A DNA stretch of 41,350 nt from a virus. Lineage: Duplodnaviria > Heunggongvirae > Uroviricota > Caudoviricetes. Within the stretch, counting starts at the first letter, position 1; the number at the start of each line of letters is the position of its first letter. Below are positions 665 through 32,855 of this stretch, one piece after another. The notes below the pieces were generated by a model. It saw only the letters and a program-made list of their open reading frames with translations. It ran no database searches and was not told the DNA's origin. Position numbers and translations under genes: made by a program. Where the stretch lies: IMG/VR virus record IMGVR_UViG_3300045988_014834, positions 1-41,350 of that record; one strand, 5' to 3'.

Positions 665-693
665 TTGCACACCCCAATATAATAGGGTACTAT
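665..693 (+). promoter_or_regulatory. Early promoter: -35 TTGCAC, 17-nt spacer, -10 TACTAT
   Basis: Sequence TTGCACACCCCAATATAATAGGGTACTATTCAC, nearly identical copies at 8523 and (reverse) 20188-20216. Confidence 0.6.
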
Positions 694-723
694 TCACTCA
701 CACCAACAATGAAGGAGTTTAAA

Positions 724-2311: not shown

Positions 2312-2340
2312 GAAAAAGGCCCCGAAAGGGGCCTTAGTTT
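2312..2340. terminator. Bidirectional intrinsic terminator (GGCCCC-GAAA-GGGGCC)
   Basis: Perfect GC hairpin flanked by an A-run and a T-run, between convergent genes. Confidence 0.7.
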
Positions 2341-8522: not shown

Positions 8523-8551
8523 TTGCACACCCCGATATAATAGGGTACTAT
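8523..8551 (+). promoter_or_regulatory. Early promoter copy (TTGCAC N17 TACTAT) driving the methyltransferase
   Basis: TTGCACACCCCGATATAATAGGGTACTATTCAG. Confidence 0.6.
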
Positions 8552-8579
8552 TCAGTTAACTTGAACAGCAGGAGTTAAA

Positions 8580-9308
8580 ATGTTTACTTTGAAACGTGGG
8601 GATTGTCTGGAGTTGATGCATGACGTACCAGATAAGAGTGTAGACCTTATTTTATGCGATTTACCTTATGGTACGACGCAAAACAAATGGGATACGGTAA
8701 TACCTTTCGATGCCCTATGGGGCCATTACATGCGTATTTCTCGCGGTGCTATTGTGCTAACAGCAGCGCAACCTTTCACTAGCGCGTTGATTATGAGTAA
8801 TGCTAAATTGTTCAAATACTCGTGGGTTTGGGATAAGGCAAATAGCACTGGATTCCTTAACGCTAAAAAGCAACCTTTACGCCGAACAGAGGACGTGGTT
8901 GTATTTTATGGCTCACAGCCAACCTATAACCCTCAAATGGAAGTTAGAGGTAAGCCCCGTAAGAAAGGTGGGTATATTAAAAAAGACGGCTCTGACAACT
9001 ATGGGTCTTTTAAAAGTGTAGAATCTGTTAGTAATGATTACTACCCCACCAATTTGATAGAAATATCTAATGCTAATAGGTCGGAAAAGTGCCACCCCAC
9101 CCAAAAACCAGTAGCGTTGATGGAATACCTGATTAAGACGTATACAAACGAAGGGGATACAGTTCTTGATAACTGTATGGGCAGCGGGACGACCGGAGTT
9201 GCGTGTGCGAACACAAACCGGAAGTTTATAGGCATGGAGTTAGACCGTGATTACTTCCGTATAGCCAGAAGACGCATATCTGAAGCATATAAAACTAAGG
9301 CCCCTTAA
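8580..9308 (+). CDS. Orphan DNA methyltransferase (N6-adenine/N4-cytosine beta-class), 242 aa
   Basis: Catalytic-motif region DLILCDLPYG followed later by the AdoMet motif HPTQKP...VLDNCMGSGTT; no restriction enzyme partner nearby. Confidence 0.85.
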   Translation: MFTLKRGDCLELMHDVPDKSVDLILCDLPYGTTQNKWDTVIPFDALWGHYMRISRGAIVLTAAQPFTSALIMSNAKLFKYSWVWDKANSTGFLNAKKQPLRRTEDVVVFYGSQPTYNPQMEVRGKPRKKGGYIKKDGSDNYGSFKSVESVSNDYYPTNLIEISNANRSEKCHPTQKPVALMEYLIKTYTNEGDTVLDNCMGSGTTGVACANTNRKFIGMELDRDYFRIARRRISEAYKTKAP

Positions 9309-9320
9309 GGGGCCTTTTAT
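9295..9320. terminator. Bidirectional hairpin terminator (AAGGCCCC-TTAA-GGGGCCTT)
   Basis: Perfect hairpin between convergent genes. Confidence 0.65.
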
Positions 9321-9781: not shown

Positions 9782-10857
9782 TATTCCTCTTTCAGATAAT
9801 CAGCAACACGTTTATCGAGTTCCGCCATCTGCTTAAGCGTGAGCGGATTCCAAAAACCATCTACAGATATTACGCGAAACTCTTCCGGTGATATACCGCT
9901 GTTGCGGAAAATCTTACCGCGCACCGGGCCGAGCGCCTGGTCCTGGAACCACGCTGGTTGTTGTTTCAGGAACTCGTAGTAAGTGGTGTCTGCGCTTACC
10001 TGAGTACCGCCGTCCGCACCCTTAGCCGCTCGTTTCGCACCTTTATCGAGGAAGTCGAACTCGGAACTGATTACCGGAGCTGTGCACGATCGACAGTTAG
10101 GATGGGCGGGGGGCATCGGCCCCTTACCAATTTCCCACGTCATTCCGTCTCTGGCTCTGCAAATCGTACTGGTACGACTGTCCAGCGTCGACACCCACTC
10201 GTATTTCTCGATGATGTCGTCGTTCTGGCGATACGTCTCGTTGCGGGCTTCGTTGGATACGTGGGACAGCGCGGTGCGGATTACGGTAGCGGCATTACGT
10301 TCAGAGATGTCCGCCAGCCCACCAGCGCCAACAACATTCTTAACAATCTGCCGTGTCGTTTGACCTTGTACAAAGCCCATCTTAACGCCGGTTACCAGGC
10401 GCGATACTTCTGTTTCACCCCAGCCATCCATCAGCTTAGTGAAATCGACGGGCTTGTCGCTTAACGATAAGGGTTGAAACTCGGCGGCGGCCCACACTTG
10501 TTCGGCGGTTGGCGTAACAAATTCCGCATTTACGTTGGCGGTAAGTGTCTTTACATTCCACCCGGCCTCATATGCCGCCAGTTCCTTAAGGTCTTCTGTC
10601 AGCTTTGTTTGCCAGTCGCCGGTAAGTCCGGTTAGTGCTTCTTCCAGGTCGCGTAACAGTTTATTCAGCCGTGCGGTGCTGCGACCGTCGTCGCCAAATA
10701 ACAGCACCTGCCGTTTGATTTCATCTCGCATTTCCTGAATGAGCGGTGCGAGGTCTTTCACTTCGCCTGATGCGGTGCGTTGTAGCCATATTTGGTGGCT
10801 GATTAGTGATGTAAGTAAGCTCATAGATAAACCCTGTGGCGCTAAAGTTAATAGCAT
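9781..10857 (-). CDS. Head morphogenesis protein (SPP1 gp7 / Mu F-like), 358 aa
   Basis: Follows the portal gene; conserved C-terminal Cys-containing region (ICRARDG...HPNCRSC). Confidence 0.65.
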   Translation of the reverse strand: MLLTLAPQGLSMSLLTSLISHQIWLQRTASGEVKDLAPLIQEMRDEIKRQVLLFGDDGRSTARLNKLLRDLEEALTGLTGDWQTKLTEDLKELAAYEAGWNVKTLTANVNAEFVTPTAEQVWAAAEFQPLSLSDKPVDFTKLMDGWGETEVSRLVTGVKMGFVQGQTTRQIVKNVVGAGGLADISERNAATVIRTALSHVSNEARNETYRQNDDIIEKYEWVSTLDSRTSTICRARDGMTWEIGKGPMPPAHPNCRSCTAPVISSEFDFLDKGAKRAAKGADGGTQVSADTTYYEFLKQQPAWFQDQALGPVRGKIFRNSGISPEEFRVISVDGFWNPLTLKQMAELDKRVADYLKEE

Positions 10858-10893
10858 ACTATAAGAAAGCCCCTTTCGGGGCTATATGTGAAC

Positions 10894-13649: not shown

Positions 13650-14230
13650 TCCTCTACCTCGCCCATATTAGTTGTTACGATTTTACCTACTGGCTCAGCG
13701 ACACTGAAAACAATCTCAGTCGGTGCCGTTTCTTCGGTGGATTCAACTGGTTTCTCTTTGCTAAGGCCGAGCTTAGCCGCGGCAAACGTAGCTGAGATAC
13801 CTGCGGCCCCTGTCTCGGTGAAATATGCCTCTTCCAGTGCCTGTGCGGTCTCGTAGGCTTCTGCGAATGCGGGAATCTCACGCAGCCACAGCTTAATAAT
13901 CGGGATAGTGACACCAATATGTAAGGCGAAGCGGGCCAGCGACGGTGGTTTATCCTGAATCAGCGGGCGTTCGTCGCCTTTGGACGTAGGCACAAGCTCC
14001 CATGACGTGCGGTCGAAGAACTCGATTAACGCGTCGCAATAGTCCGGGTCCCACAACGCAGCGGAATTACGGGATGATTGATAAAGGCTCTGTTTGCCGC
14101 GCGGTCGTTTACGACGACGGTTTGCGCTAACTGCTTCTTCATGTGCAGCTTGCACCACCTCTGGCGATGGCTGCTTGAGTTTCAGCTTCATAGAATCCCC
14201 TTGCATATGCGTCTGACCATCAGAGCGCAT
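13646..14230 (-). CDS. Terminase small subunit candidate (likely start at the ATG near 14191)
   Basis: Coupled upstream of the large subunit; basic N-terminal region. Confidence 0.45.
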   Translation of the reverse strand: MRSDGQTHMQGDSMKLKLKQPSPEVVQAAHEEAVSANRRRKRPRGKQSLYQSSRNSAALWDPDYCDALIEFFDRTSWELVPTSKGDERPLIQDKPPSLARFALHIGVTIPIIKLWLREIPAFAEAYETAQALEEAYFTETGAAGISATFAAAKLGLSKEKPVESTEETAPTEIVFSVAEPVGKIVTTNMGEVEE

Positions 14231-14256
14231 CAGACGCGCCCTACGCGTCTAAAGGG

Positions 14257-14290
14257 ATTATATAAGGGGATTGGGTGGGATGTACAGAAA
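14257..14290 (-). promoter_or_regulatory. Candidate late promoter: perfect -10 TATAAT, poor -35
   Basis: Minus-strand TATAAT at 14262-14257, just after the early-operon terminator and upstream of the terminase genes. Confidence 0.35.
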
Positions 14291-14312
14291 AGCCCTCAGT
14301 AGAGGGCTTGTG
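14288..14312 (-). terminator. Intrinsic terminator ending the small-gene operon
   Basis: Hairpin AGCCCTC-AGTA-GAGGGCT followed by a T-rich run on the minus strand. Confidence 0.55.
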
Positions 14313-14318
14313 GTGTGA

Positions 14319-14474
14319 CTATTCGGTTATATCGCCGCCGTCTACCAGTGCGATTGGTATTCTAACTTCGCCGTTGAATGTTTCGGCGTACCAGAACTTC
14401 TCGCACTGCGTTACGCTGAAAACATCGAGTTCTGACGTAGCGCCTGTTTTCCAGTAGATAGTTAACTTTTTCAT
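14319..14474 (-). CDS. Small protein, 51 aa (ORF below track cutoff)
   Basis: ATGA overlap with the upstream HTH gene; terminator downstream. Confidence 0.35.
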   Translation of the reverse strand: MKKLTIYWKTGATSELDVFSVTQCEKFWYAETFNGEVRIPIALVDGGDITE

Positions 14475-14731
14475 TCCCCACTCTCCTCTTTAGCAATGCG
14501 TTGCTCTGTTTTAGTGATACCCCGGCGCGTGAATAACACCGGGCTTGTTTTAACGTGTGTCATCAGACGATTGTTATAAATTACGTGGCGCTCGCAATCG
14601 ACGTCTTTACTGTACTTCGCAATCGTCATTTCGTTGATGCCGGTTTGTCGGCAAGTCTCTGCCATCGTGCCGTATTCTTTAATCAGGTTCGGAATGCTGG
14701 TAATCATCCTAAGAAATTCCTCGTTGTCCAC
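14471..14731 (-). CDS. Small HTH DNA-binding protein (likely start ATG at 14707, 78 aa)
   Basis: HTH-like segment MAETCRQTGINEMTIAKYSKD; last large gene of the small-gene operon. Confidence 0.45.
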   Translation of the reverse strand: MDNEEFLRMITSIPNLIKEYGTMAETCRQTGINEMTIAKYSKDVDCERHVIYNNRLMTHVKTSPVLFTRRGITKTEQRIAKEESGE

Positions 14732-14874
14732 ATCGCATTCGGATATTTGTTATCGCGGTCCTGCACTACAGCAATCATGTTACCGCGTTGCACGAGGCAG
14801 AAGTGGCGTTGCTGCTCGCCGTTGTAGCGACGCCAGATTGCTTCTTCGATTGCTGCGTTGATGTCACTGAACAT
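14704..14874 (-). CDS. Small protein, 56 aa
   Basis: ATG start, stop overlaps the next ATG. Confidence 0.35.
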   Translation of the reverse strand: MFSDINAAIEEAIWRRYNGEQQRHFCLVQRGNMIAVVQDRDNKYPNAMWTTRNFLG

Positions 14875-14876
14875 AA

Positions 14877-15059
14877 CTACCCCACTATCTCATCACCAAG
14901 CCACGCCGTTTCTCGTATATCGTCAACCACACAGGCGGCGTGCTCACGGCTAATTGCAAAAATGTAGAAGCTGAACTTCTTCCCGTCGGCGTCGATGTGG
15001 TTAACCGAGTAAGGTTTCCACAGGACGCCATCAATTACTACTGGTTCAGGCGCTTTCAT
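14877..15059 (-). CDS. Small protein, 60 aa
   Basis: Track ORF in a coupled series. Confidence 0.35.
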   Translation of the reverse strand: MKAPEPVVIDGVLWKPYSVNHIDADGKKFSFYIFAISREHAACVVDDIRETAWLGDEIVG

Positions 15060-15198
15060 TCTTCATGCGCTCAAGTAACAACTTAAACGCCTCCAGTTGA
15101 AACTCACCGTTAATCGACAGTTGCCCGCCTAACGTCTGTTTCTCCGACTCAAGCACCATAATACGGCGCTCGAGCGATGCTATTGTGATTTTAGGCAT
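15046..15198 (-). CDS. Small coiled-coil protein, 50 aa
   Basis: Heptad-like leucine pattern; overlaps neighbours by a few nt. Confidence 0.3.
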   Translation of the reverse strand: MPKITIASLERRIMVLESEKQTLGGQLSINGEFQLEAFKLLLERMKNESA

Positions 15199-15376
15199 TG
15201 GTGTCACCTTTGTTCAGGTTGAAGCGGTTAATCAGTTCACGGCGTGTCTCGTACAGCGACTCTACCATTTGCTCGGCTACCGCGATTTTAGTATTCAGGA
15301 CGTACATCACGTGGCTGATATCTACGCCGCTGTTAACGGCCTCTACCATCATCTTTTCGTAGTCGCGGTCAGTCAT
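15191..15376 (-). CDS. Small protein, 61 aa
   Basis: Track ORF, coupled. Confidence 0.35.
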   Translation of the reverse strand: MTDRDYEKMMVEAVNSGVDISHVMYVLNTKIAVAEQMVESLYETRRELINRFNLNKGDTNA

Positions 15377-15531
15377 TCCTTACGCTCTCCCCACATGCGA
15401 TTGAGATACTTGTTCTTGTCCGGCCCCGGGAAACTGTTACGTTTCATCAGTTCCTCGCGTGTCGGGAACGGGGTGTGATTGACTTTACGGCCTACTCGTA
15501 ATGGTGTGCTTACTGGGCCTTGTTCGCTCAT
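15373..15531 (-). CDS. Small protein, 52 aa
   Basis: ATGA overlaps on both sides. Confidence 0.3.
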   Translation of the reverse strand: MSEQGPVSTPLRVGRKVNHTPFPTREELMKRNSFPGPDKNKYLNRMWGERKE

Positions 15532-15677
15532 TTCTTCTCTCCTGCATATGCTGCTTTCAGGGTCTGCATCGCAGCGAACCAGAACGCGGCCGCCGGGATG
15601 CTGTTGCTCAGGTTACTAACGGCGATGCGTGCCATCAGTTGTGCGTCTTTAAATGCTTCGATATCTGTGATTTTCAT
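15528..15677 (-). CDS. Small protein, 49 aa, first gene after the promoter
   Basis: GGAG upstream of the ATG; about 25 nt downstream of the predicted start site. Confidence 0.3.
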   Translation of the reverse strand: MKITDIEAFKDAQLMARIAVSNLSNSIPAAAFWFAAMQTLKAAYAGEKK

Positions 15678-15710
15678 CTTCTCTACTCCGTTCTCGTTGT
15701 CGATGAAGTA

Positions 15711-15739
15711 AATATAGTAGGGTCGAGGGTAATAGTCAA
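15711..15739 (-). promoter_or_regulatory. Near-consensus sigma70 promoter: TTGACT, 17 nt, TATATT
   Basis: Minus strand reads TTGACTattaccctcgaccctacTATATT. Confidence 0.6.
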
Positions 15740-15760
15740 CTAGTCATTGCAGAAAATAGA

Positions 15761-15795
15761 TAAAAAAAAATCCCGGCTGGGTCAGGGCCGGGATA
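15761..15795 (-). terminator. Strong intrinsic terminator after the endolysin gene
   Basis: CCCGGC/GCCGGG stem followed by a run of nine T on the minus strand. Confidence 0.7.
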
Positions 15796-15858
15796 AAACT
15801 GGAGAGCAGAGGGATGGAGCAGGAGGTGATTTAAGTATCGTCTGATTAGTCTTAGGTG

Positions 15859-16347
15859 TCAACCTTTCACCGCGCGCCCAATAGCCTCAGCCTCCCGCCA
15901 CGGTTTACCGTCGAATAGTGCAAGACGTCCCGCGGTACGGCGACGCAGGCCGAGTAATGGTTTGCCGTTCTGGTTGATGAACAGCGCCAGCTTAGCCCGC
16001 AGCGTCGAGATATCGCCGGAACGCAGCGCCTTACCTGTGCCAGTAGTAGCGGCAATCACACCAGCACCTGCGTTGTATACCAGGTCACACACTGCGTCGA
16101 ACTGCGCCTGGGTCAGTGAATGGTGTGCTGCTGCATCAACCGCAACTACAGCCTTAGCCATATCACGATTCAGTAACAGGAGGCCTTGCCCCTTCGTAAT
16201 CTTCTGCCCTTCGTACACATGAGGGCCATAGCTTCCGTAGCCTATGGTTAAGTATTTTTCCGAAGGTGTCGCGCGGTATGCGGTCCCGCGGAATCCCTCG
16301 AACGCAGCGGTAAAATGCAATCCATTATCTGAAATGTTTCGAGACAC
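15859..16347 (-). CDS. Endolysin (GH24 lysozyme, T4 E / P22 gp19-like), 162 aa
   Basis: Catalytic region FEGFRGTAY...TIGYG and conserved C-terminal motifs; adjacent to holin-like genes. Confidence 0.85.
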   Translation of the reverse strand: MSRNISDNGLHFTAAFEGFRGTAYRATPSEKYLTIGYGSYGPHVYEGQKITKGQGLLLLNRDMAKAVVAVDAAAHHSLTQAQFDAVCDLVYNAGAGVIAATTGTGKALRSGDISTLRAKLALFINQNGKPLLGLRRRTAGRLALFDGKPWREAEAIGRAVKG

Positions 16348-18276: not shown

Positions 18277-18307
18277 ATTCTGTCTCTCCTCTCGTTCGTG
18301 TAAATGA

Positions 18308-18336
18308 ATAGTAGCCTATTCTATCTTAGCGTGCAA
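18308..18336 (-). promoter_or_regulatory. Promoter TTGCAC, 17 nt, TACTAT (early-type, divergent spacer)
   Basis: Minus strand TTGCACgctaagatagaataggcTACTATTCA. Confidence 0.5.
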
Positions 18337-20153: not shown

Positions 20154-20187
20154 TTCTGAATTCCTTATGTCTCGTTCCGATAAGTGA

Positions 20188-20216
20188 ATAGTATACTATT
20201 ATGTTGGGGTGTGCAA
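20188..20216 (-). promoter_or_regulatory. Early promoter copy (TTGCAC N17 TACTAT) for the leftward early operon
   Basis: Minus strand TTGCACACCCCAACATAATAGTATACTATTCAC. Confidence 0.6.
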
Positions 20217-23855: not shown

Positions 23856-23919
23856 GTCAATTACTCCTTAGTCAGTTGATATGTGAATAGTACCATATTA
23901 ATTATTTTAGAAAAGCCCA

Positions 23920-23948
23920 TTGACAAGTGAATAGCTCGCTATTATAGT
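23920..23948 (+). promoter_or_regulatory. Middle promoter TTGACA, 17 nt, TATAGT with embedded palindrome AATAG-N4-CTATT (23930-23943)
   Basis: ttgacaagtgAATAGctcgCTATTatagtt. Confidence 0.55.
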
Positions 23949-26522: not shown

Positions 26523-26552
26523 TTGACAACCTGAATAGTTAGCTATTATAGT
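26523..26552 (+). promoter_or_regulatory. Middle promoter TTGACA ... TATAGT with palindrome AATAG-N4-CTATT (26534-26547)
   Basis: ttgacaacctgAATAGttagCTATTatagtt. Confidence 0.5.
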
Positions 26553-29922: not shown

Positions 29923-30203
29923 CTAAAGAGGGCCGCGTACAGAAATACGCAAAGGAGCGATTCGAGGCCCTCGGGGGCCTCGTTCGAAAGCTGTCTTATG
30001 AGGGACGCTCCGGCGCCCCCGACCTCCTGGTAATTCTCCCCGGCGGCATTGTCTGGTTTGTCGAGGTTAAGAAAGACGAAAATACGAAGCCAGACCCGCA
30101 CCAGTTACGTGAACATGAGAGATTTCGAAAACGTGGTGCAAATGTTTTTGTCGTCGGTTCGTTTAAACAGGTTGACGACCTAATAGCGAACTATTATAGT
30201 TAG
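29919..30203 (+). CDS. VRR-NUC domain nuclease, 94 aa
   Basis: Core PDLLVILPGGIVWFVEVKK (D...E.K PD-(D/E)XK pattern). Confidence 0.55.
   Translation: MTKEGRVQKYAKERFEALGGLVRKLSYEGRSGAPDLLVILPGGIVWFVEVKKDENTKPDPHQLREHERFRKRGANVFVVGSFKQVDDLIANYYS
30172..30200 (+). promoter_or_regulatory. Middle promoter TTGACG, 17 nt, TATAGT with palindrome AATAG-N4-CTATT (30182-30195)
   Basis: ttgacgacctAATAGcgaaCTATTatagtt, inside the 3' end of the VRR-NUC gene. Confidence 0.5.
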
Positions 30204-32826: not shown

Positions 32827-32855
32827 AAAAGGCCCCTAAAGGGGCCTTAATTTTA
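32826..32855. terminator. Bidirectional terminator (GGCCCC-TAAA-GGGGCC) between replication arm and tailspike
   Basis: Perfect hairpin with flanking A and T runs. Confidence 0.7.

What the first reader, a model, noticed from the sequence alone, without database searches (positions are those of the whole stretch)
14319..15739. Operon of eight translationally coupled small genes behind a near-consensus promoter, ending in an HTH protein
From the promoter TTGACT-N17-TATATT (15739-15711) to the terminator at 14312-14288 I find eight consecutive minus-strand ORFs of 49-78 aa, most joined by ATGA or short overlaps. Several are below the ORF-track cutoff. The seventh encodes an HTH protein. The unit is bracketed by the endolysin terminator and the terminase operon. 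Strong promoter, several tiny unknown proteins, then an HTH regulator is the layout of anti-defense (acr-aca-like) or host-takeover loci; the HTH protein could alternatively be the late-gene activator.
Basis: partly seen in the sequence, partly recalled or inferred. Interest (0 to 1): 0.65.

Follow-up and report, generated by a model that had tools for sequence, protein, structure and literature searches.

The report
Phage small-gene accessory operon with NinH
This is a real promoter-to-terminator operon of eight tiny, conserved genes, one of them a NinH-type DNA-binding protein. It forms the variable accessory-gene slot of K1G/Jersey-like phages; relatives already annotate these genes, their functions are unknown, and nothing links them to anti-CRISPR-type loci.

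Summary
The window is a Kagunavirus-like (Guernseyvirinae) phage genome. Eight minus-strand ORFs (49-78 aa) lie between an invariant sigma-70 promoter (TTGACT-N17-TATATT, 15739-15711) and a hairpin terminator (14309-14284). They are joined by four ATGA overlaps, an 8-nt and a 14-nt overlap, and one 2-nt gap.

All eight match PHROG families and show dN/dS of 0.10-0.28 across 36 related loci. The promoter is exact in 36/36 loci. Both flanking terminators show compensatory stem changes.

Gene content between the conserved boundary cassettes is mosaic: 53 ORF clusters in 36 loci. Four genes form a backbone (o1, o2 = DUF2737, o3, o7 = NinH-like); o4-o6 are semi-conserved and o8 is rare.

The HTH protein is a NinH homologue (35% identity to lambda NinH). 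In this clade the base-contacting Arg (Fis R85 / NinH R30) is an invariant Glu.

Nothing supports an acr-aca operon. There is no operator repeat, no Aca or Acr homology, and the HTH gene is not the last gene. The "RNA polymerase inhibitor" label on an o5 homologue could not be reproduced.

Best reading: a constitutively promoted, probably early accessory or host-modulation module, analogous to lambdoid nin/PL accessory regions. Function is unproven. It is an ordinary but well-defined feature, already annotated in relatives.

The parts
15761..15794 (-). Intrinsic terminator ending the lysis (endolysin) transcript: stem AUCCCGGC/GCCGGGAU, 9-nt loop, then nine U.
   Evidence: Fold dG -13.8, z -2.7. 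Present in 34/36 loci by strict criteria, with a compensatory C-G to T-A change in Salmonella-type loci.
15711..15739 (-). Sigma-70 promoter TTGACT-N17-TATATT; the probable +1 is near 15704 (inferred).
   Evidence: Scan gives 10/12 matches. Both hexamers and the spacing are exact in 36/36 related loci, including Jersey-like Salmonella phages, while the spacer varies. Annotated as 'host promoter 6' in fBC-Eco01.
15678..15704 (-). Conserved 5' leader with the Shine-Dalgarno GGAG (15689-15686). The gene that follows the leader differs between phages.
   Evidence: Alignment of 36 loci: the leader is nearly invariant up to the ATG, and several different first genes follow it.
15528..15677 (-). o1, 49 aa, basic, unknown function (phrog_2180). 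Backbone gene.
   Evidence: PHROG E 2e-25. Present in 36/36 modules, dN/dS 0.16. Homologues also occur in phages outside the Guernseyvirinae, e.g. IME207 and PaulSarasin (their families were not checked here).
15373..15531 (-). o2, 52 aa, very basic (pI 10.3), DUF2737 family. Backbone gene.
   Evidence: Pfam PF10930 39.1 bits, above the gathering score of 25. Present in 35/36 modules, dN/dS 0.23. Lambdoid homologues lie directly after abc2 in the PL operon.
15191..15376 (-). o3, 61 aa, acidic, unknown function (phrog_1402). Backbone gene, restricted to Guernseyvirinae.
   Evidence: PHROG E 5e-22. Present in 36/36 modules, dN/dS 0.26. Distribution. Not related to NinH despite some database labels.
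15046..15198 (-). o4, 50 aa from the ATG. This is the minimal form of a family with a conserved N-terminal domain of about 48 aa and swappable C-terminal extensions.
   Evidence: phrog_9023/10200 E 1e-24 to 1e-27. Present in 29/36 modules, dN/dS 0.28. Alignment shows the variable C-termini.
14877..15059 (-). o5, 60 aa, acidic (charge -4), three strands plus a helix, unknown function. The most conserved of the eight.
14704..14874 (-). o6, 56 aa, unknown function (phrog_5407).
   Evidence: PHROG E 2e-25. Present in 31/36 modules, dN/dS 0.21. Homologues lie in the left-end small-gene cluster of N4-like Gamaleyavirus phages, upstream of RNAP1.
14471..14707 (-). o7, 78 aa, NinH-family helix-turn-helix protein of a divergent Guernseyvirinae subfamily. 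Backbone gene.
   Evidence: BLASTP against lambda NinH: 35% identity, E 3e-10. Pfam NinH 26.0 bits, below the gathering score of 29.8. Cluster representatives that are 90-97% identical carry PF06322. AF2 model: three helices plus a beta-hairpin. Present in 36/36 modules, dN/dS 0.15. Glu replaces the Arg of Fis R85 / NinH R30.
14319..14474 (-). o8, 51 aa, acidic, unknown function (phrog_22569). It occupies the variable last slot of the operon.
   Evidence: PHROG E 5e-21. Present in only 4/36 modules and 20 GenBank phage records, plus Shigella phage Sd1. dN/dS 0.10.
14284..14309 (-). Intrinsic terminator of the operon: stem AAGCCCUC/GAGGGCUU, 4-nt loop, weak U-tract UUUUCUGU.
   Evidence: Fold dG -15.4, z -3.9. 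Present in 34/36 loci, with a compensatory T-A to G-C change in Salmonella-type loci.
14257..14286 (-). Context: promoter TGTACA-N18-TATAAT of the terminase/structural operon. It abuts the terminator and is followed by a conserved leader of about 65 nt.
   Evidence: Scan; conservation.

Best explanation
The region is one self-contained transcription unit. It is the small-gene accessory module of Guernseyvirinae siphophages (Kagunavirus and Jersey-like), sitting between the lysis cassette and the packaging/structural operon.

Shown:
- A conserved cassette (terminator, promoter, leader, SD) opens the unit, and a second conserved cassette (terminator, then the terS promoter) closes it.
- All eight ORFs are protein-coding and under purifying selection.
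- Between the two cassettes the gene content is mosaic. Four genes form a backbone (o1, o2/DUF2737, o3, o7/NinH-like). The remaining slots gain, lose or swap small genes.

Inferred:
- Host sigma-70 RNA polymerase fires the invariant, operator-less promoter without any phage factor. The unit would then be on from DNA entry, making an mRNA of about 1.4 kb.
- Ribosomes load at the conserved SD and re-initiate across the ATGA and short overlaps.
- The products are small cytoplasmic proteins that modulate host or phage DNA transactions or host factors. This rests on analogy with where homologues sit: lambda ninH in the nin region, DUF2737 next to the anti-RecBCD gene abc2 in the P22/HK97-type PL operon, and o6 in the N4-like left-end early cluster.
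- The HTH protein is a NinH/Fis-like nucleoid-protein mimic rather than a dedicated operon repressor. Because Glu replaces its base-contacting Arg, it should not recognise the G-N13-C sites of lambda NinH.

Which cellular targets the eight proteins hit is unknown.
For: Identity of the phage and annotation of the same genes in relatives.

Coding status: PHROG hits for all eight; dN/dS 0.10-0.28; third-position bias.

Promoter exact in 36/36 loci with a variable spacer, and a conserved leader followed by different first genes.

Both terminators are conserved with compensatory changes.

Mosaic content: 53 ORF clusters in 36 modules of 1171-2974 bp, with a fixed backbone order.

NinH homology and an HTH plus beta-hairpin model.

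DUF2737 above the Pfam threshold, located next to abc2 in lambdoid phages.

o6 homologue in the N4-like early cluster.

Lambda NinH is an early-expressed, Fis-like DNA-bending protein, and its deletion gives small plaques (PMC7166090).

The module promoter lacks the AATAG-N4-CTATT palindrome that sits in the spacer of the other near-consensus promoters of this genome.
Against: - No function has been tested for any of the eight proteins or their close homologues.
- Early timing is inferred from promoter type only. The one available RNA-seq study of a close relative places its NinH gene in a broad 'middle' class with 42 of 57 genes, at very coarse resolution (PMC12645636).
- Four genes are universally conserved across two genera. 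That fits a core role rather than a purely accessory one.
- The terminator's U-tract is weak, so read-through into the terminase operon is possible and the unit may not be fully autonomous.
- Context analogies with lambdoid and N4-like phages are indirect.
Confidence: 0.6

Rival explanations
1. An acr-aca-type anti-defence operon. The small upstream proteins inhibit CRISPR-Cas or other defences, and the HTH protein (o7) represses the strong promoter as Aca proteins do.
For: The layout resembles such loci: a strong promoter, several tiny unknown proteins (some acidic) and an HTH protein. The region is hypervariable between conserved flanks, like known anti-defence accessory regions (concept in bioRxiv 10.1101/2023.04.06.535777).
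Against: - o7 is a NinH-family protein, and no Aca-like or XRE-type HTH family matches it.
- It is the seventh of eight genes, and in most relatives another gene follows it.
- There is no inverted repeat of 10 nt or more at or near the promoter.
- The promoter spacer varies freely among relatives.
- No hit to anti-defence or defence families for the eight proteins or for the 10 commonest accessory clusters in relatives.
- Kagunavirus isolates are reported to be highly sensitive to restriction-modification systems and variably sensitive to the Old system (PMC11990801).
Confidence: 0.1
2. A regulatory module for late genes. The NinH-like protein, alone or with partners, activates the adjacent terminase/structural promoter or relieves the conserved terS leader, much as lambda places ninH just upstream of Q.
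For: - o7 always lies one variable gene upstream of terS.
- The terS promoter has a poor -35 (TGTACA) and an 18-nt spacer.
- It is followed by a conserved leader of about 65 nt with two hairpins.
- These phages have no RNA polymerase gene of their own (ORF inventory), so some factor must time the late genes.
Against: - Lambda NinH is not the late regulator; Q is. It behaves as a general Fis-like DNA bender (PMC7166090).
- No sequence motif is shared between the terS promoter region and other promoters.
- The genome-wide palindrome, a candidate regulator site, is absent from both the module and the terS promoter.
- In the K1B4 RNA-seq the NinH gene and the structural genes fall in the same temporal class.
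Confidence: 0.12
3. A packaging helper. The NinH-like DNA-bending protein acts at the nearby packaging-initiation region to assist terminase, as IHF does at lambda cos. The other small genes would be unrelated passengers.
For: o7 is constantly close to terS and to the place where many deposited genomes are opened. NinH-family proteins bend DNA.
Against: This is purely positional. The pac/cos site is not mapped. o7 lacks the Fis-type Arg contacts. Lambdoid ninH genes are not adjacent to cos.
Confidence: 0.06
4. The ORFs are chance open frames in a non-coding or antisense region.
For: Each ORF is very short, and some fall below common gene-caller cut-offs.
Against: dN/dS is 0.10-0.28 for all eight. 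Variation is biased to the third codon position. PHROG E-values are 1e-21 to 1e-35. Start positions are conserved in homologues.
Confidence: 0.01

Closest known systems
Lambda nin region and NinH (PF06322), the Fis-like nucleoid-protein mimic
   Same: o7 is homologous to lambda NinH: 35% identity over 51 residues. It has the same three-helix HTH plus beta-hairpin plan. T32, K35, H45 and H55 are conserved. Like lambda ninH, it sits in a run of small, overlapping, mostly uncharacterised genes upstream of the late functions.
   Different: - Only one nin-region gene is shared; the Pfam and PHROG scans gave no other named nin family.
- The run lies between the lysis and terminase genes, not between replication genes and Q.
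- It has its own promoter and terminator rather than being part of the PR transcript.
- The Arg that contacts the flanking guanines (NinH R30 / Fis R85) is an invariant Glu here, and R34 is Ala or Ser.
- A basic C-terminal tail with an insertion of about 9 aa is added.
- The window protein scores below the Pfam gathering threshold.
DUF2737 genes of P22/HK97-type lambdoid phages (P22 ORF-56, HK97 gp38, mEp043 gp37)
   Same: o2 passes the Pfam threshold for DUF2737. In both settings it is a gene of about 55 aa inside a string of small early accessory genes.
   Different: In lambdoid phages it directly follows the anti-RecBCD gene abc2 in the PL operon. Here there is no abc2, erf or kil neighbour. 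The function is unknown in both settings.
acr-aca anti-CRISPR operons
   Same: A strong promoter, several tiny proteins and one HTH protein in a single operon; variable content between relatives.
   Different: The HTH is not an Aca family member and is not terminal. The promoter has no operator repeats. There is no Acr homologue and no evidence of autoregulation.
Phage accessory regions (hypervariable gene slots between conserved flanks; Silas et al., bioRxiv 10.1101/2023.04.06.535777) and the early small-gene clusters of N4-like phages
   Same: Flanks and boundary cassettes are conserved while content is highly variable (53 clusters in 36 loci). The genes are small and are shared horizontally with other coliphage groups: lambdoid phages, N4-like phages and other siphophages such as Shigella phage Sd1.
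   Different: Four of the genes are not variable at all; they are conserved across both genera. No gene in the slot has a demonstrated counter-defence role.
T7 Gp2, inhibitor of host RNA polymerase (PDB 2LMC/2WNM)
   Same: One GenBank record labels the o5 homologue 'RNA polymerase inhibitor'. Both are acidic proteins of about 60 aa with a small beta/alpha fold.

Membership tests
Phage NinH family (PF06322) | Significant sequence similarity to lambda NinH | tested here: met
   BLASTP 35% identity over 51 aa, E 3e-10, with the lambda sequence verified from NC_001416. Relatives 90-97% identical carry PF06322 and the UniRef name 'Protein ninH'.
Phage NinH family (PF06322) | Score at or above the Pfam gathering threshold | tested here: not met
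   26.0 bits against a cut-off of 29.8, E 8.6e-6.
Phage NinH family (PF06322) | Three-helix N-terminal HTH followed by two beta-strands | tested here: met
Phage NinH family (PF06322) | Fis-type DNA-contact residues shown to be needed for lambda NinH binding (N18, R30, T32, K35, R56) | tested here: not met
   T32 and K35 are kept. N18 becomes T, R30 becomes E (invariant in the clade) and R56 becomes V. Mutant data are in PMC7166090 Table 1.
Phage NinH family (PF06322) | Homodimer that binds and bends DNA at G-N13-C sites | not testable with these tools
   Needs EMSA, SELEX or FRET with purified o7.
acr-aca operon | HTH regulator of a known Aca family, usually the last gene | tested here: not met
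   Only NinH matches o7 in Pfam and NCBIfam. o8 follows o7, and other genes follow it in relatives. No dedicated Aca library was available.
acr-aca operon | Inverted-repeat operator overlapping the operon promoter | tested here: not met
   No inverted repeat of 10 nt or more near 15711-15739. The spacer sequence is variable in relatives.
acr-aca operon | At least one protein that inhibits CRISPR-Cas | not testable with these tools
   No homology to annotated anti-CRISPR or anti-defence PHROGs. A functional assay is needed.
DUF2737 (PF10930) | Score above the Pfam gathering threshold | tested here: met
   o2: 39.1 bits against 25, E 7e-10.
T7 Gp2-like RNA polymerase inhibitor | Sequence or profile homology to Gp2 | tested here: not met
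   BLASTP E 0.16. hhalign probability 0.6% against the T7 gene 2 product. PDB phmmer finds nothing.
T7 Gp2-like RNA polymerase inhibitor | Gp2 fold as the best structural match | tested here: inconclusive
Phage accessory region (hypervariable slot between conserved flanks) | Conserved flanking genes with variable gene content between them across related genomes | tested here: met
   36 modules of 1171-2974 bp hold 53 ORF clusters, bounded by conserved endolysin and terS genes and conserved boundary cassettes.
Intrinsic (Rho-independent) terminator | GC-rich hairpin followed by a U-tract | tested here: met
   Upstream: 8-bp stem plus U9. Downstream: 8-bp stem plus UUUUCUGU, a weak tract. Both stems show compensatory changes.

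The most novel reading that the evidence does not exclude
The unit is a counter-defence or host-takeover island. Its four universally conserved proteins (o1, DUF2737, o3 and the NinH-like protein) would act together on a host nucleoid or recombination target. The NinH-like protein has a recognition helix with charge reversal at the key Arg positions. It would then work not as a DNA-sequence reader but as a decoy or protein-binding antagonist, for example of Fis or of a DNA-sensing defence. The variable slots would hold host-specific inhibitors.
Probability: 0.2. Interest if true: 0.55.

Novelty: new member of a known kind. Interest (0 to 1): 0.3.

Why it matters
Guernseyvirinae phages (K1G-like coliphages, Jersey-like Salmonella phages) are widely used as therapy and biocontrol candidates and as small chassis for phage engineering.

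This analysis marks a 1.4-kb unit with sharply conserved boundaries, where nature swaps small genes in and out. That makes it a natural insertion site for payloads. It is also a compact list of candidates for host-interaction screens: four backbone proteins and about 50 variable ones.

It also shows that the NinH family has a subfamily lacking the Fis-type arginine contacts. That qualifies the common annotation of these proteins as 'transcriptional regulator' or 'NinH'.

The finding itself does not overturn anything. The genes are already annotated as hypothetical proteins in many GenBank records.

Tried and rejected

2. o3 as a second NinH-like or HTH protein, as some records label it; in addition, phrog_268 aligns to the o3 N-terminus. 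hhalign and BLASTP show no relation to NinH. The PHROG overlap probably comes from fused o3+o7 gene calls in phages where the two genes are adjacent.

3. DUF2737 as 'NinZ' of the nin region. The lambdoid homologues checked lie after abc2 in the PL operon, not in the nin region.

4. An SD-sequestering hairpin in the o1 leader. It is weak (dG -7.7, z -1.7) and needs bases upstream of the probable transcription start, so it was dropped.

5. An operator in the module promoter. No inverted repeat is present. Only the right half of the genome-wide palindrome appears, and it is mutated in the window.

6. Defence-system homology (PADLOC): nothing below E 0.03. NCBIfam: nothing. Rfam and tRNA scans of the window: nothing.

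7. Temporal class from published RNA-seq of phage K1B4. The data are too coarse, and the supplementary files hold no per-gene phage time course.

8. Literature on Jerseyvirus transcriptomics, Guernseyvirinae anti-defence and phage CM001 essentiality: nothing relevant found.
Full report
WHAT THE WINDOW IS

A megablast of 14200-15900 finds 367 phage records. The best are Kagunavirus genomes at 90-95% identity (K1G/K1H-like coliphages, subfamily Guernseyvirinae). Jersey-like Salmonella phages match at lower identity.

The ORF map shows a minus-strand run. It goes from about 18150 through two holins and the endolysin (15859-16347, Pfam Phage_lysozyme), then the small-gene region, then terS, TerL (Terminase_6N/6C), portal and head genes. 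Replication genes lie on the plus strand. No phage RNA polymerase gene is evident.

CHECK OF THE OBSERVATION

The eight minus-strand ORFs are present as described:
- o1 15677-15528 (49 aa)
- o2 15531-15373 (52 aa)
- o3 15376-15191 (61 aa)
- o4 15198-15046 (50 aa)
- o5 15059-14877 (60 aa)
- o6 14874-14704 (56 aa)
- o7 14707-14471 (78 aa)
- o8 14474-14319 (51 aa)

Four junctions are ATGA overlaps. Two are longer overlaps (8 and 14 nt) and one is a 2-nt gap. The ATG starts of o4 and o7 are the ones used by all homologues.

The promoter TTGACT-N17-TATATT lies at 15739-15711. A consensus match alone is not above chance in this region (7 sites against 4.8 +/- 2.0). Comparative data settle the matter, as described below.

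The downstream terminator is an 8-bp hairpin at 14309-14290 followed by UUUUCUGU. The endolysin terminator is an 8-bp hairpin plus nine U at 15794-15761.

COMPARATIVE EVIDENCE

I collected 50 IMG/VR loci with the o7 protein and three annotated GenBank relatives. The stretch between endolysin and terS could be extracted from 36 genomes.

1. All eight ORFs are coding. Each hits a PHROG family with E 1e-21 to 1e-35. Nei-Gojobori dN/dS is 0.16, 0.23, 0.26, 0.28, 0.12, 0.21, 0.15 and 0.10 for o1 to o8. Variable sites are concentrated at codon position 3 (224/173/371).

2. The promoter is functional by conservation. Both hexamers and the 17-nt spacing are identical in 36/36 loci. This includes the Salmonella-type genomes, whose neighbouring proteins are only 62-87% identical, and the spacer itself varies.

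3. The promoter is part of a conserved cassette: terminator, T-run, promoter, a leader of about 27 nt, and an SD. The first gene after the leader differs among phages.

4. The far end is a second conserved cassette: the terminator hairpin, directly abutting a TGTACA-N18-TATAAT promoter, then a conserved terS leader. Both hairpins carry compensatory double changes in the Salmonella-type loci: C-G to T-A upstream and T-A to G-C downstream.

5. Between the cassettes the content is mosaic. Modules are 1171-2974 bp long and hold 53 ORF clusters. The backbone order is fixed: o1, o2, o3, (o4), (o5), (o6), o7, a variable last gene, then terS. o1, o3 and o7 are in 36/36 modules and o2 in 35/36. o4, o5 and o6 are in 29-31. 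o8 is in only 4.

6. Among the inserted genes of relatives, the only recognisable ones are a DUF3850/ASCH RNA-binding-type domain and a few small proteins whose hydrophobic sequences suggest membrane proteins. The rest are unknown.

WHAT THE PROTEINS ARE

o7 (NinH family). BLASTP against lambda NinH gives 35% identity and E 3e-10. Close relatives carry PF06322. The window protein itself scores just below the Pfam gathering threshold (26.0 against 29.8 bits).

Lambda NinH is an early-expressed, Fis-like homodimer that bends DNA and prefers G-N13-C sites. R30, T32, K35 and R56 are needed for binding. An alignment of the Guernseyvirinae clade with lambdoid NinH proteins and Fis gives these results:
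- T32, K35, H45 and H55 are kept.
- The Arg equivalent to NinH R30 / Fis R85 is an invariant Glu in this clade.
- R34 / Fis R89 is Ala or Ser.
- N18 is variable.

The protein is therefore a divergent NinH subfamily. Its DNA specificity must differ, and DNA binding as such remains unproven.

o2 (DUF2737). It scores above the Pfam threshold. Its lambdoid homologues lie directly after the anti-RecBCD gene abc2 in the PL operon: P22 ORF-56 and mEp043 gp37.

o6. It has homologues in the left-end small-gene cluster of N4-like Gamaleyavirus phages, upstream of RNAP1.

o1 and o8. Both have homologues in phages outside the Guernseyvirinae, for example Salmonella phage IME207 for o1 and Shigella phage Sd1 for o8.

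o3. It is confined to the Guernseyvirinae.

o4. It is the minimal form of a family with a conserved 48-aa N-terminal domain and interchangeable C-termini.

No protein matches PADLOC or NCBIfam models.

REGULATORY LOGIC

The window contains a quasi-palindrome, AATAGTAnnCTATTAT, at nine sites against 0.85 expected. At three plus-strand near-consensus promoters (23920, 26523, 30172) it sits in the spacer, which is an operator-like position.

The small-gene promoter carries only the right half of this palindrome, and that half is mutated in the window. There is no inverted repeat of 10 nt or more anywhere near it.

I infer that the unit is transcribed by unaided host RNA polymerase and is not under the control that acts on the palindrome-bearing promoters.

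Timing is not measured. The only RNA-seq on a close relative (K1B4) places its NinH gene in a 'middle' class holding 42 of 57 genes.

INTERPRETATION

The best-supported reading is a self-contained, constitutively promoted accessory module. It has a four-gene backbone plus exchangeable slots. It is functionally analogous to the lambdoid nin and PL accessory regions and to the early small-gene clusters of other virulent phages.

The module probably encodes modulators of host or phage DNA transactions. It possibly encodes counter-defence factors.

The acr-aca reading fails each testable defining feature: Aca-type HTH, terminal position, operator repeats and known Acr homology.

Reported phenotypes of Kagunavirus isolates argue against a potent anti-restriction function in the lineage. 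They are highly sensitive to restriction-modification systems and variably sensitive to Old.

The late-activator and packaging-helper ideas rest only on the position next to terS. They remain minor rivals.

NOVELTY

The genes, the promoter and the terminators are already annotated or predicted in relatives such as fBC-Eco01 (PMC9825357). NinH and DUF2737 are known families.

New here:
- the delimitation of the unit by two conserved boundary cassettes;
- the split into backbone genes and variable slots;
- the recognition that the NinH-like clade lacks the Fis-type arginines.

This is an ordinary but well-defined feature: a new member of a known kind.

Noticed in passing
window 679-694, 8537-8552, 10848-10863, 18307-18322, 20185-20202, 23886-23901, 23930-23945, 26534-26549, 30180-30197: A quasi-palindrome, AATAGTAnnCTATTAT, occurs at nine sites (0.85 expected by chance). 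Three sites sit in the spacer of near-consensus sigma-70 promoters of the replication region, an operator-like position. Four others share a longer conserved block (…TATTATATyGGGGTGTGCAAG); on the other strand that block carries a perfect TATAAT facing nearby operons. The fBC-Eco01 paper called this motif a 'phage RNA polymerase promoter', but these phages have no such polymerase. It is probably the binding site of an unidentified phage regulator.
   Followed up: partly
window 14191-14257 (minus strand): The terminase operon has a conserved leader of about 65 nt with two hairpins (AGACGCG-tagg-GCGCGTCT and GCGTCTGA…TCAGACGC). It is conserved, with pair-preserving changes, in Salmonella-type relatives. 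It could be a regulatory RNA, an operator or part of the packaging signal.
   Followed up: partly
window 14191 vs 14230: The mechanical ORF list starts terS at the ATG at 14230. The start conserved in all relatives is the ATG at 14191 (MKLKLKQ…), preceded by AAGGGG. The first 13 codons of the listed ORF are probably leader, not protein.
   Followed up: partly
window 2316-2335, 9297-9316, 32829-32848: Three near-identical copies of a 20-nt hairpin, AAGGCCCCnnnnGGGGCCTT, are flagged as terminators on both strands. Two close the plus-strand ORFs (954-2084 and 8580-9308) that are embedded in the minus-strand structural region.
   Followed up: no
window 15046-15198 and related loci L002-L052: The o4 family has a conserved 48-aa N-terminal domain joined to at least four unrelated C-terminal extensions in different phages. 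One extension has a Cys/His pattern resembling a zinc ribbon. The window carries the bare N-terminal form.
   Followed up: partly
window 15834-15862 (minus strand): A second promoter-like site, TTGACA-17-GATACT, lies at the end of the endolysin gene. It sits just upstream of the endolysin terminator, so any transcript from it would end almost at once. It is annotated as 'host promoter 5' in fBC-Eco01.
   Followed up: no
window 14804-14835: A 10-12 bp inverted repeat lies inside the o6 coding sequence. It is the only inverted repeat of 10 nt or more in the operon. Its significance is unknown.
   Followed up: no
L002 2382-2567 (PQ141284, phage fEg-Eco06): The o5 homologue is deposited as 'RNA polymerase inhibitor; similar to 2LMC_A'. 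Profile and fold comparisons here do not support that label, which may spread through annotation pipelines.
   Followed up: yes
phrog_268 vs o3 (15191-15376) and o7 (14471-14707): The 119-position PHROG profile for NinH-like proteins aligns to o3 over positions 1-41 and to o7 over positions 44-117. This suggests that fused o3+o7 gene calls, from phages where the two genes are adjacent, contaminate the family. That would explain the 'NinH-like' labels on o3 homologues.
   Followed up: partly
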